DNA of 36,165 nt from a virus: the IMG/VR virus record IMGVR_UViG_3300045988_140880, positions 1-36,165 of that record; one strand, 5' to 3'. Made by a program: the position numbers and the translations under genes. Positions within the stretch are counted from its first letter, which is position 1. Each line of letters opens with the position of its first letter. The notes beneath the pieces are model-generated. The model saw nothing but the letters and a program-made list of their open reading frames with translations, had not been told where the DNA came from and did not search any database. Shown in pieces: positions 13,339-14,103 of this stretch.

Positions 13339-14103
13339 CTATTTTGTGTATAATTTTTTGATTTTTTCATCTAGTAAATCCATACTGTTTGGAGAAACTT
13401 TAATTCCAGAAAGTATAGGAGTTTTAAAGACTCTTTGTTTGCTGATAGTAGTAATCTGATTAACATATGCTATACTTCCATGTTTCATTCGAAATATTTC
13501 ATCTTTAACTTTTTCTAAATAATCACTTCTTTTTGAAATGTAATTTAGTTCTTTAGCTCTTTCTTCAATAGGTAAACTTTCTAATTTGCTAAATCTTCTT
13601 GTAACCTTTTCTAATTCAACTTTAAATTTGTTATATAATAAATTATACAATTCATCTCCTAAGTCAACACAAGTGGTATTATTATAAACTTTCCCTTCTT
13701 TTGAAGAAGACAAAGGAATAACATTTAGTGTACCAGAAGAATTGTTGTCATATTTATTTATTACAACACAATAATGCAATCCACCCATTTCTTTGCCTAC
13801 ATTAAATCCTAAATTTACTTTGACTATATCTCCACGTTTAAAAATTTTTAATGAATCAAAATCAAAAGATTTTTCTTCGTCATGATAATTAGCAAAATCA
13901 TTAATCCAATATGCTAAAAGATGACTTTTTTTATATTCAAGCAATTCTATATGCTTATTGAAACTTTCATCTAATCTTTTTAATGATAAATCTTTATGAG
14001 ATATAGCTTTGCTTTTTTCTTCTATTAATTCTTTTTGATTAAAGGTTTCATTTTTTGTTGTTCCAATATTTTCTAACCTGTTAACTGTTTCTTTATTTTC
14101 CAT
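13339..14103 (-). CDS. MazF/PemK-fold toxin-like protein with an N-terminal extension and an internal coiled-coil insertion
   Basis: 254 aa. KRGDIVKVNLGFNVGKEMGGLHYCVVI...LNVIPLSS ... GSIAYVNQITTISKQRV matches the PemK/MazF core motifs. There is an extra ~90 aa at the N-terminus and a ~55 aa insertion. Confidence 0.6.
   Translation of the reverse strand: MENKETVNRLENIGTTKNETFNQKELIEEKSKAISHKDLSLKRLDESFNKHIELLEYKKSHLLAYWINDFANYHDEEKSFDFDSLKIFKRGDIVKVNLGFNVGKEMGGLHYCVVINKYDNNSSGTLNVIPLSSSKEGKVYNNTTCVDLGDELYNLLYNKFKVELEKVTRRFSKLESLPIEERAKELNYISKRSDYLEKVKDEIFRMKHGSIAYVNQITTISKQRVFKTPILSGIKVSPNSMDLLDEKIKKLYTK

What the first reader, a model, noticed from the sequence alone, without database searches (positions are those of the whole stretch)
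13339..14103. Orphan elongated MazF/PemK-fold protein in the lysis-integrase accessory region, with no adjacent antitoxin ORF
The core motifs RGDIVKVNLG..GKEMGG.H.CVVI, LNVIPLSS and GSIAYVNQITTISKQRV fit the PemK/MazF endoribonuclease fold. However, the protein carries a ~90-aa N-terminal helical extension and a ~55-aa coiled-coil insertion between the two halves of the fold. It has its own promoter (TTGCAT-17-TATAAT) and terminator. No small upstream or overlapping partner gene is present. The extension may act as a cis antitoxin or sensor, which would fit a single-gene abortive-infection or defence module carried by the prophage.
Basis: partly seen in the sequence, partly recalled or inferred. 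Interest (0 to 1): 0.7.

Follow-up and report, generated by a model that had tools for sequence, protein, structure and literature searches.

The report
Sma-like MazF defence gene with RNA
This prophage gene encodes a long MazF-type (RNA-cutting fold) protein that belongs to the already described 'Sma' single-gene antiphage family, and members of that family almost always have a small RNA gene right behind them, which may be the missing antidote.

Summary
ORF 13339-14103(-) encodes a 254-aa protein with a split PemK/MazF fold, an 87-aa helical N-extension and a ~58-aa helical hairpin insertion (Pfam E 4.9e-12; AlphaFold pLDDT 93.6; Foldseek MazF TM 0.75-0.80).

It is not an orphan oddity. The architecture defines a family of more than 900 clusters at 50% identity (PHROG 1412). 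[quoted passage not shown] So the protein is a new, distant member of a known defence family.

No conserved protein partner exists. However, essentially every intact family member I examined is followed by a small RNA gene. It has a near-consensus promoter, a hairpin, an invariant single-stranded A(G/A)AAGA(C/U) motif and a terminator. In the window it lies at about 13284-13200(-). In S. aureus it is the Northern-validated sRNA sau-63.

I propose, as inference, that this RNA neutralises or regulates the nuclease in the manner of a type III toxin-antitoxin system. One published strain has sau-63 disrupted and is viable, which argues against a strict antitoxin role. Cis-autoinhibition remains a live rival.

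The parts
13339..14103 (-). Sma-family (long MazF/PemK-fold) protein gene, 254 aa
   Evidence: ORF. Pfam PemK_toxin E 4.9e-12. PHROG 1412 full length, E 1.5e-44. hhalign against the staphylococcal Sma group: 99.9%.
14127..14155 (-). Promoter-like site TTGCAT-17-TATAAT upstream of the gene. The RBS GGAGG lies at 14110-14114.
   Evidence: Read from the sequence. The -10 is conserved in L008. It falls below the threshold of the scan. Function is not shown.
13843..14103 (-). Codes for the N-terminal helical extension (residues 1-87). The conserved part is residues ~28-87, with invariant W66 and E77 and near-invariant F80.
   Evidence: AlphaFold helices 18-53 and 57-77. Conservation. Aligns with the N-extension of S. 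aureus sma, W66 to W39.
13657..13842 (-). First half of the MazF core (residues 88-149). Contains G103-x-E105-x-G107-G108-x-H110-Y111, where His replaces the catalytic Arg of MazF, and P130-L-(T/S)-S133-x-K135.
   Evidence: Alignment with B. subtilis and E. coli MazF and with Kid. Profile against PDB. The PLTSxK motif is also in ToxN 2xd0, a motif-level match only.
13483..13656 (-). Inserted helical hairpin (residues 150-207) between the two halves of the MazF fold
   Evidence: AlphaFold helices 151-172 and 179-205. Pfam and PDB matches are split around it.
13339..13482 (-). Second half of the MazF core plus the C-terminal helix (residues 208-254) and the stop codon. Contains G209-S210, Q216, T219, S221-K222-x-R224.
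13291..13319 (-). Perfect sigma-70 consensus promoter TTGACA-17-TATAAT of the small RNA, starting 20 nt after the stop codon
   Evidence: 12 of 12 matches. Identical in L008, whose protein is only 78% identical. An equivalent promoter sits behind relatives.
13200..13284 (-). Predicted ~85-nt non-coding RNA: 5' leader, hairpin 1 (13276-13247), single-stranded AGAAGAU, then a terminator
   Evidence: Fold z-score -3.6. RNAalifold: 8 of 18 pairs with compensatory changes. Covariance model R1: 104 bits at 13202-13290. Single copy in the window. No Rfam family matches.
13236..13242 (-). Invariant single-stranded motif AGAAGAU (family consensus A[AG]AAGA[CU]) between hairpin 1 and the terminator
13211..13232 (-). 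Intrinsic terminator (8-bp stem plus a T run), which ends both the RNA and read-through from the protein gene
   Evidence: The stem changes by compensatory substitutions in relatives.

Best explanation
**What it is.** The gene encodes a distant member of the Sma family. [quoted passage not shown] The protein is a MazF-fold endoribonuclease-type effector with a family-specific helical N-extension and an inserted helical hairpin. It is carried as an accessory gene by a temperate phage of a low-GC gut bacterium.

**Its likely role.** It is probably expressed from the lysogen and stops superinfecting phages by RNA cleavage and abortive infection.

**Not a stand-alone gene.** It forms a two-part module with an ~85-nt non-coding RNA. 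The RNA is made from a consensus promoter directly behind the gene.

**Most likely mechanism (inferred).** The abundant, presumably short-lived RNA binds the nuclease through its hairpin and its A(G/A)AAGA(C/U) stretch, as a pseudo-substrate or processed substrate. This keeps the nuclease inactive, as ToxI does for ToxN in type III toxin-antitoxin systems. Infection, through transcription shut-off or a phage trigger sensed by the helical domain, would free the nuclease.

**Shown here.**
- The fold.
- Family membership.
- Absence of a protein partner.
- Existence, conservation and linkage of the RNA unit.
- Expression of its S. aureus counterpart, sau-63.

**Inferred.**
- Nuclease activity, given that His110 replaces the catalytic Arg.
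- The defence phenotype of this particular member.
- The neutralising role of the RNA.
For: **Fold.**

**Family.**
- 807 relatives in the word-indexed search, and 914 cluster representatives at 50% identity in the full scan. Nearly all are 225-290 aa.
- Full-length match to PHROG 1412.

**Link to Sma.**
- The literature defines Sma/SMA.
- The only PemK-like ORF there is L033:4740-5444(-), 234 aa, next to guaA.
- It matches PHROG 1412 at 1.3e-57.
- It aligns with the window protein by BLASTP: 29% identity, E 5e-16.
- Its staphylococcal group aligns with the window family at hhalign 99.9%, E 1.5e-35, over 220 columns including the extension and the insertion.

**Context.** Prophage lysogeny or accessory regions in Staphylococcus, Streptococcus and gut Clostridia phages.

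**RNA.**
- A promoter-plus-terminator unit follows the gene in the window, L004, L033, L002 and L001.
- A strict test finds it in 27 of 52 distinct loci. Shuffles predict 0.02, and 2 of 172 control ORFs pass.
- By inspection it is present in all but one of the 52, the exception being a fragmentary gene copy.
- It lies on the opposite strand in L042, L045 and L049, so it is an independent gene.
- Common design: hairpin plus A[AG]AAGA[CU], sometimes as two tandem repeats.
- Compensatory changes support the structure.
- In S. aureus it equals Rfam sau-63 (128 bits, full length). That sRNA was seen on a Northern blot and is expressed in USA300.
- Reverse test: 16 of 17 loci fetched by RNA pattern A have a Sma-like ORF 54-324 nt upstream on the same strand, 54-109 nt in 15 of them.
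- Asymmetry typical of toxin-antitoxin pairs: the RNA occurs with truncated or absent genes (L017, L126, L116, the L133 lineage). No intact gene was found without an RNA.
- The RNA promoter matches 12 of 12 consensus positions; the gene's promoter matches 9 of 12.

**From established knowledge.** ToxN, AbiQ and CptN, the type III toxins, have Kid/MazF-like folds. CptN appears at Foldseek rank 50.
Against: - The reference Sma of SaPIpT1028 and DefenseFinder's FS_Sma model were not available. Membership therefore rests on the vSa-alpha sma identified through primer mapping.
- Identity to the staphylococcal proteins is low: 29% in the core.
- No activity data exist for this member or for any Clostridia-type member.
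- The catalytic Arg of MazF is replaced by His in 97% of the family, so RNase activity is assumed, not shown.
- The published name says 'single-protein'.
- In strain sXu53 of PMC12829572 the marker sits inside sau-63 and removes its central 32 nt, yet the strain is viable. This argues against the RNA being an indispensable antitoxin, at least for vSa-alpha sma in RN4220.
- The staphylococcal RNAs do not carry a clean A[AG]AAGA[CU] motif.
- Unlike known type III systems, the RNA lies downstream, has its own promoter, and has only one or two units.
- PADLOC has no model for the family.
Confidence: 0.5

Rival explanations
1. A truly single-protein system. The helical N-extension and/or the inserted hairpin hold the MazF core inactive in cis, as a fused antitoxin or sensor of the kind seen in CapRel-type fused toxin-antitoxins. 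A phage protein releases the block. The downstream RNA only tunes expression, for example mRNA 3'-end stability or switching the system off during prophage induction, or it serves another purpose.
For: - The literature name and description of Sma as single-protein.
- A strain with sau-63 disrupted is viable.
- The extension and insertion are conserved family-wide, with invariant W66 and E77 and near-invariant K159 and K207.
- The model is confident as one compact unit, pTM 0.84.
Against: - Does not explain why a strongly promoted, structured RNA with an invariant single-stranded motif stays glued to the gene across Staphylococcus, Streptococcus and Clostridia phages, in either orientation.
- Does not explain why the RNA outlives truncated genes.
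- No sequence or profile similarity of the extension to MazE/PemI antitoxins was found.
Confidence: 0.3
2. A catalytically altered MazF-fold protein that is not a toxin. It would be an RNA-binding partner or processing factor of the adjacent sRNA, and the pair would regulate lysogeny or host genes rather than defend against phages.
For: - The catalytic Arg is replaced by His.
- Tight linkage to an sRNA that in S. aureus responds to growth conditions.
- Frequent position between the cI-like repressor and the integrase.
Against: - A homologue is reported to protect against phages.
- The Ser/Thr-Ser-x-Lys and Gly-x-Glu-x-Gly-Gly loops around the MazF active site are nearly invariant.
- The repressor-integrase position is also the classic site of prophage defence genes.
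Confidence: 0.1
3. A conventional type II MazEF-like pair whose antitoxin is a neighbouring protein: the divergent 57-aa ORF (14293-14463,+) or the 66-aa HTH_3 protein (14560-14760,+).
For: - Both ORFs travel with the gene in the closest relatives.
- One family member is fused to an HTH_26 domain (P0071).
Against: - Neither neighbour is conserved beyond close relatives. In most contexts the upstream gene is a cI-like repressor or something else.
- The arrangement is divergent, not an operon.
- The 57-aa ORF has no family match.
Confidence: 0.04
4. The 'RNA unit' is not a gene. It is just the gene's terminator plus a promoter for whatever lies downstream.
For: Consensus scans alone are not evidence of function (note).
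Against: - The terminator follows the promoter by only 60-130 nt, so it blocks the downstream gene.
- The downstream genes differ: integrase, a 148-aa ORF, or none.
- The unit is inverted in L042, L045 and L049.
- The S. aureus unit is a Northern-validated 98-nt sRNA whose ends match the prediction.
- 27 of 52 loci against 2 of 172 controls.
Confidence: 0.03

Closest known systems
[quoted passage not shown] 2022, Cell 185:3248; cited in PMC12409344 and PMC12829572)
   Same: - Homologous over the full length, including the N-extension and the helical insertion.
- Same PHROG.
- His in place of the MazF catalytic Arg, and the PL(T/S)SxK motif.
- No protein antitoxin.
- Carried by prophages or satellites.
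- Followed by a small RNA gene.
   Different: - About 29% identity in the core to vSa-alpha sma.
- The host is a low-GC gut anaerobe phage, not Staphylococcus.
- Here it sits between the lysis genes and the integrase side of the prophage, rather than between repressor and integrase.
- The RNA differs in sequence and is not matched by the sau-63 model.
- Activity is untested.
- The SaPIpT1028 reference sequence itself could not be compared.
Canonical type II MazF/PemK/Kid/EndoA toxins (Pfam PF02452; PDB 4mzp, 1ne8, 4mdx, 5cr2, 1m1f)
   Same: - Beta-barrel core fold, TM 0.75-0.80.
- The G-x-E-x-G-G loop, the Thr/Ser after strand 3, and Q-I-x-T-I-x-K-x-R in the second half.
   Different: - 254 aa against ~110 aa.
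- An 87-aa helical extension and a 58-aa helical insertion.
- Catalytic Arg replaced by His, and the following Pro by Tyr.
- No upstream MazE/PemI gene.
- NCBIfam MazF equivalogs score far below their cut-offs: 21 bits against 150.
Type III toxin-antitoxin systems ToxIN / AbiQ-antiQ / CptIN / TenpIN
   Same: - A protein endoribonuclease of the Kid/MazF-like fold superfamily, paired with a small structured RNA made in excess. CptN is Foldseek hit 50.
- The RNA is built from one or two repeats of hairpin plus an A-rich single strand.
- The PLTSxK motif is identical to ToxN PLTSPK.
- Carried on mobile elements with an abortive-infection logic.
- RNA modules occur without the toxin in some phages. 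The pseudo-ToxI of phage phiTE, recalled from memory, would be a precedent.
   Different: - No significant sequence or profile similarity to ToxN.
- The RNA gene is downstream, sometimes convergent, with its own promoter. In known type III systems it is upstream and shares a promoter.
- One or two units instead of 2-5.5 tandem repeats.
- RNA-protein binding is not shown.
- One strain with the RNA disrupted is viable.
GajC of type II Gabija (Liu-DS1), PMC13069673
   Same: [quoted passage not shown]
   Different: - GajC works with a GajB UvrD-type helicase gene. No helicase is next to the window gene or its relatives.
- It is an E. coli system, and no sequence comparison was possible.
sau-63 (Rfam RF02394), an S. 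aureus sRNA from island SaPIn2 (which, from memory, is the same island as vSa-alpha)
   Same: Same position and design as the window RNA. It starts 7 nt after a -10 box that follows the sma stop codon, is ~98 nt long and ends at an intrinsic terminator. It is expressed.
   Different: There is no detectable sequence similarity to the window RNA. No function has been assigned, and I found no paper that links it to sma.

Membership tests
[quoted passage not shown] | MazF/PemK-like domain | tested here: met
   Pfam E 4.9e-12. Foldseek MazF TM 0.75-0.80.
[quoted passage not shown] | Full-length homology to a gene that the literature calls sma (vSa-alpha of RN4220) | tested here: met
   The sma locus was found through the published primers. 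BLASTP gives 29% identity, E 5e-16. hhalign gives 99.9%, E 1.5e-35, over 220 columns. All are in PHROG 1412.
[quoted passage not shown] | Match to the reference Sma of SaPIpT1028 or to DefenseFinder's FS_Sma HMM | not testable with these tools
   The Cell 2022 paper is not held, and neither the sequence nor the HMM was available. PADLOC v2 has no model for the family.
[quoted passage not shown] | No adjacent protein antitoxin gene | tested here: met
   No conserved partner ORF was found across contexts.
[quoted passage not shown] | Carried by a prophage or satellite in a region expressed in the lysogen | tested here: inconclusive
   The prophage accessory location is shown. Expression cannot be tested.
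[quoted passage not shown] | Protects against phages (abortive infection) | not testable with these tools
   Needs experiments.
Type II MazEF / PemIK toxin-antitoxin | Upstream, co-transcribed MazE/PemI-type antitoxin gene | tested here: not met
   Contexts.
Type II MazEF / PemIK toxin-antitoxin | Catalytic Arg in the beta1-beta2 loop (R25 in B. subtilis, R29 in E. coli) | tested here: not met
   His110 occupies this position in 97% of the family.
Type II MazEF / PemIK toxin-antitoxin | Compact ~110-aa toxin that scores above the MazF equivalog cut-offs | tested here: not met
   The protein is 254 aa. NCBIfam gives 21.2 bits against a cut-off of 150.
Type III toxin-antitoxin (ToxIN/CptIN/TenpIN) | Toxin belongs to the ToxN/AbiQ, CptN or TenpN protein families | tested here: not met
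   No Pfam hit other than PemK. hhalign against ToxN gives probability 0.7%. There is only fold-level relatedness (rank 50).
Type III toxin-antitoxin (ToxIN/CptIN/TenpIN) | Adjacent small RNA gene of repeated structured units | tested here: inconclusive
   The RNA is present and linked, with one or two units. However, it lies downstream with its own promoter, which is not the canonical layout.
Type III toxin-antitoxin (ToxIN/CptIN/TenpIN) | The RNA binds and inhibits the toxin, and the toxin processes the RNA | not testable with these tools
   Needs biochemistry. The viable sau-63-disrupted strain is a caution.
Type II Gabija (GajB + GajC) | Adjacent GajB UvrD-like helicase gene | tested here: not met
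   The neighbours are a 148-aa ORF, a 57-aa ORF and an HTH_3 protein. There is no helicase in relatives' contexts, except an unrelated ResIII gene about 1.5 kb away in L014.
Rfam RF02394 sau-63 | Match of the window RNA to the covariance model | tested here: not met
   No hit at the gathering threshold or at E up to 10. It is analogous by position and design only.

The most novel reading that the evidence does not exclude
Sma-type 'single-protein' MazF-like defence genes would in fact be two-component protein-RNA modules. A dedicated small RNA is encoded immediately 3' of the gene from its own consensus promoter: sau-63 in S. aureus, and the 13284-13200(-) RNA here. It would be the cognate antitoxin or controller of the nuclease.

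This would define a fourth, architecturally inverted family of type III-like toxin-antitoxin/abortive-infection systems, built on a bona fide PemK/MazF-family toxin. It is widespread in phages of Firmicutes. Some phages carry orphan copies of the RNA module, possibly as decoys.
Probability: 0.35. Interest if true: 0.8.

Novelty: new member of a known kind. Interest (0 to 1): 0.55.

Why it matters
**For annotation.**
- The label 'type II toxin-antitoxin system PemK/MazF family toxin' (NCBI) is misleading. So is 'antitoxin mazE-like' (PHROG 1412).
- These ~230-290-aa proteins are the Sma antiphage family. It is very common in temperate phages of gut Clostridia, streptococci and staphylococci.

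**For biology.**
- How a MazF-like toxin is kept harmless without an antitoxin gene is an open question for Sma.
- The conserved, strongly promoted small RNA behind nearly every family member is a concrete and cheaply testable candidate answer.
- It would also give a function to the orphan S. aureus sRNA sau-63, and it would extend type III toxin-antitoxin logic to the PemK/MazF family proper.
- The RNA module found without the protein in another phage lineage hints at a counter-defence decoy.

Tried and rejected
- **PADLOC.** No hit for the window protein or for the staphylococcal and streptococcal homologues. The library simply lacks the family.
- **The Sma paper.** Reading it failed because it is not held. 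Several literature searches were wasted on the ambiguous term 'SMA'.
- **Genome scan for the S. aureus gene.** A genome-contig scan with phage 92 ORF020 returned only S. rostri. Protein searches with phage 92 ORF020 and Javan166_0069 did not list the vSa-alpha gene. The bridge was finally made through published primer sequences.
- **Covariation.** Mean-field DCA on 391 sequences, meant to see whether the N-extension contacts the active-site groove, was dominated by gap artefacts and was not used. Model coordinates are not exposed, so the cis-antitoxin geometry could not be checked.
- **ToxN homology.** hhalign of the family against ToxN shows only the 10-residue PLTSxK match and is not significant. 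Homology to ToxN is therefore not claimed.
- **Rfam.** No family matches the window RNA.
- **The RNA as a peptide gene.** Rejected. The window RNA has only AUG-UAA, and I saw no start codon in the other RNAs I read.
- **The 40-aa ORF upstream (14133-14255,-).** Rejected as a partner because it is not conserved in L008.
- **The divergent HTH_3 and 57-aa ORFs as antitoxins.** Rejected as general partners because they are confined to close relatives.
- **Megablast of 12500-15300 against INPHARED phages.** No match.
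Full report
**1. The observation**

The minus-strand ORF 13339-14103 encodes 254 aa with the quoted motifs.

Evidence for the MazF fold:
- Pfam PemK_toxin matches at E 4.9e-12 (46.5 bits, cut-off 23.1) in two separate stretches.
- A profile of 123 family members matches solved MazF/EndoA/MoxT chains in two halves, E about 1e-6.
- An AlphaFold2 model built on that alignment is confident: pLDDT 93.6, pTM 0.84.
- The model shows two long N-terminal helices (18-53, 57-77), a beta core (92-149), an inserted helical hairpin (151-172, 179-205), the remaining strands (210-221) and a C-terminal helix (238-252).
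- Foldseek against the PDB returns only MazF/Kid-type toxins in the first 49 places, with target-normalised TM 0.75-0.80. No solved structure covers the helical parts.

The promoter-like TTGCAT-17-TATAAT and the GGAGG are present, but this is only a consensus match.

**2. It is a large, conserved family, not an oddity**

- The word-indexed search finds 807 relatives.
- The exhaustive search finds 914 cluster representatives at E up to 1e-3, and 477 at up to 1e-10. Nearly all of the best 150 listed are 225-290 aa.
- W66, E77 and K222 are invariant.
- F80, G91, G99, G103, E105, G107, G108, H110, Y111, P130, L131, S133, K159, K207, G209, S210, Q216, T219, S221 and R224 are at least 90% conserved.
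- Aligned with B. subtilis and E. coli MazF and with Kid, the catalytic Arg (R25/R29) is replaced by His110 and the following Pro by Tyr. The Thr/Ser after strand 3 is kept, within a P-L-(T/S)-S-x-K motif.
- The whole protein matches PHROG 1412 (E 1.5e-44, full length), a 'moron' family mislabelled 'antitoxin mazE-like'.

**3. Genomic context**

The window is a temperate phage genome:
- structural genes;
- an 89-aa ORF (10570-10839), unassigned;
- a C39-like/SH3 endolysin (11178-12560);
- then, on the minus strand, a 148-aa ORF and this gene;
- a divergent 57-aa ORF and a 66-aa HTH_3 protein;
- a tyrosine integrase (15257-16372), a 213-aa ORF and an S24 repressor-like gene.

The identical protein occurs on ~36-kb human-gut contigs.

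In many relatives the gene sits between a cI-like HTH+S24 repressor and the integrase. Examples are Staphylococcus phage 92 ORF020, Streptococcus phage Javan166 and gut prophages.

No protein neighbour is conserved across these contexts. The small upstream ORF at 14133-14255(-) is not conserved even in a 78%-identical relative. The claim 'no protein antitoxin gene' holds.

**4. What is known**

[quoted passage not shown] 2022, not held).
- It was also detected in vSa-alpha of RN4220 (PMC12829572).
- DefenseFinder calls it FS_Sma, and it is among the commoner systems in INPHARED phages.

- I located them in S. aureus metagenome contigs.
- The only PemK-like ORF between them is L033:4740-5444(-), 234 aa, two genes from guaA.
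- It is 38% identical to phage 92 ORF020 over the full length.
- It is 29% identical to the window protein over residues 86-249, E 5e-16.
- It matches PHROG 1412 at 1.3e-57.
- A profile-profile comparison of the window family (A1) with the staphylococcal group (A4) gives 99.9% probability, E 1.5e-35, over 220 columns. This includes the N-extension (W66 aligned with W39) and the insertion.

I conclude that the window protein is a distant member of the Sma family.

Caveat: the SaPIpT1028 reference sequence and the FS_Sma HMM themselves could not be compared, and PADLOC v2 lacks the family.

A second published case of a split MazF with a helical insertion is GajC of type II Gabija. That protein needs a GajB helicase, and none is present here.

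**5. The unexpected part: a linked small RNA gene**

*In the window.* Twenty nucleotides after the stop codon lies a perfect TTGACA-17-TATAAT promoter (13319-13291,-). It is followed about 60 nt later by an intrinsic terminator (13232-13211,-). The predicted ~85-nt transcript folds well (z-score -3.6) and has no coding potential.

*In a close relative.* In L008 the protein is only 78% identical, yet this unit is almost invariant.

*In distant relatives.* The same arrangement is found behind:
- the 64%-identical gut homologue (L004);
- S. aureus vSa-alpha sma;
- phage 92 ORF020;
- Javan166_0069.

*Systematic test.* I took 113 loci and reduced them to 52 distinct downstream regions.
- A strict test required a promoter with at least 10 of 12 matches within 80 nt of the stop, and a terminator 25-120 nt after it.
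- It is met by 27 of 52 regions. Dinucleotide shuffles predict 0.02, and 2 of 172 other ORFs pass.
- Inspection of the rest shows the unit in nearly all of them. They were missed only because the terminator stem absorbs part of the T-run or the promoter overlaps the stop codon.

*Independent gene.* In L042, L045 and L049 the RNA gene lies on the opposite strand, convergent with the protein gene. A covariance model built from seven window-type RNAs recovers these inverted copies (E about 1e-5 to 1e-6) and those of L046 and L047, and nothing else significant in 535 kb. So this is an independent gene, not merely a 3' UTR or a promoter for the next gene.

*Common design.* A 5' leader, then a hairpin, which is either a GCCN-loop-NGGC stem or a long A/U stem as in the window. 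Then comes an A-rich single strand ending in A(G/A)AAGA(C/U), then a second hairpin or a second copy of the unit, then the terminator. L089, L104, L113 and phage 92 carry two tandem repeats.

*Structure support.* RNAalifold on the window type finds compensatory changes in 8 of 18 pairs and an invariant AGAAGA.

*The S. aureus counterpart.* The unit coincides end to end with Rfam sau-63 (128 bits; L033:4611-4708,-). This ~100-nt sRNA from island SaPIn2 (which, from memory, is vSa-alpha) was validated by Northern blot and is expressed in USA300. No function has been assigned, and I found no paper linking it to sma.

*Reverse test.*
- Of 17 IMG/VR loci fetched with a 25-nt RNA pattern, 16 have a Sma-like ORF on the same strand 54-324 nt upstream, 54-109 nt in 15 of them.
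- A looser pattern gives 11 more such loci. It also finds one phage lineage (40 near-identical contigs) that has the RNA module but no Sma-like ORF. L116 from the first pattern is a further orphan.
- The RNA also persists next to truncated genes (L017, L126).
- I found no intact family gene without an RNA.

**6. Mechanism**

*Shown:*
- a MazF-fold protein of the Sma family;
- no protein partner;
- a tightly linked, structured small RNA with a strong promoter, expressed in S. aureus.

*Known for the family.* At least one member defends against phages.

*Inferred.* The protein is an endoribonuclease-type abortive-infection effector. The RNA is its neutralising partner and binds through the hairpin and the A(G/A)AAGA(C/U) strand, as in type III toxin-antitoxin systems.

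Supporting this inference:
- the ToxN, AbiQ and CptN toxins of type III systems share the Kid/MazF-like fold (established knowledge; CptN is Foldseek hit 50);
- the repeat-like build of the RNA;
- the stronger promoter of the RNA;
- the pattern that the RNA survives without the gene but never the reverse;
- the P-L-T-S-x-K motif, identical to ToxN's PLTSPK, although there is no significant overall similarity.

Against this inference:
- The published name says 'single-protein'.
- The RNA layout differs from known type III systems.
- The staphylococcal RNAs lack a clean motif.
- Most importantly, the chloramphenicol marker of strain sXu53 maps inside sau-63 and removes its central 32 nt, yet the strain is viable. 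So the RNA is not indispensable there. Alternatively, vSa-alpha sma is poorly expressed in that strain, or the protein is also auto-inhibited.

I therefore give about 0.9 to the family assignment, about 0.6 to a defence role for this member, and about 0.35 to the RNA being a direct neutraliser.

**7. Novelty and verdict**

The protein is a new, distant member of a known kind, Sma/FS_Sma. As such, the finding as written is largely explained.

The conserved RNA partner is, as far as the searchable literature shows, unreported. It turns an open question into a direct experiment: how is a MazF-like toxin kept silent without an antitoxin gene? This keeps the interest moderate to fairly high.

Noticed in passing
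L133:3005-3026(-), and 39 near-identical IMG/VR contigs (for example L145 and L153); L116:3531-3555(-): The RNA module (hairpin GCCUAUAGGGC plus AUUAAAGAAGA) occurs in one 50-60 kb phage lineage directly after an ORF stop, with no Sma-like ORF nearby. L116 has a two-module RNA with a terminator but no Sma-like ORF. These could be orphan antitoxins or phage decoys against Sma-type defence.
   Followed up: partly
L033:4646-4677 (S. aureus vSa-alpha): The marker insertion described as 'upstream of sma' in strain sXu53 (PMC12829572) maps inside the sau-63 sRNA gene and deletes its central 32 nt. The strain is viable.
   Followed up: partly
window 12574-13020 (-) and 13140-13185: Downstream of the RNA lies a 148-aa ORF with two CxxC pairs and no family match. 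A second terminator-like hairpin sits between the RNA and this ORF, and its stem is replaced by a different perfect stem in L008.
   Followed up: no
window 14293-14463 (+) and 14560-14760 (+): A divergent 57-aa ORF (no family match) and a 66-aa HTH_3 protein travel with the Sma-like gene, the RNA and the 148-aa ORF as one block. The block occurs in different elements: L011 is next to relaxase and IstB, and L014 is next to ResIII/Mrr_cat. A CCAATTGG palindrome lies in the spacer of the Sma-like gene's promoter.
   Followed up: partly
window 17103-17585 (-): The repressor-like gene next to the integrase module has a Peptidase_S24 domain, but Pfam detects no HTH domain.
   Followed up: no
P0071 (311 aa, Logan contig): One family member is fused to, or called together with, an HTH_26 (Cro/C1-type) domain.
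   Followed up: no
L001:3741-3827 (-), Streptococcus phage Javan166: The Rfam sRNA Spy779816 (76 bits) lies on the opposite strand between the Sma-linked RNA and the integrase gene.
   Followed up: no
PHROG 1412; NCBI protein names: The family is labelled 'antitoxin mazE-like' in PHROGs and 'type II toxin-antitoxin system PemK/MazF family toxin' by NCBI. Both labels are misleading for these ~230-290-aa Sma-type proteins.
   Followed up: yes
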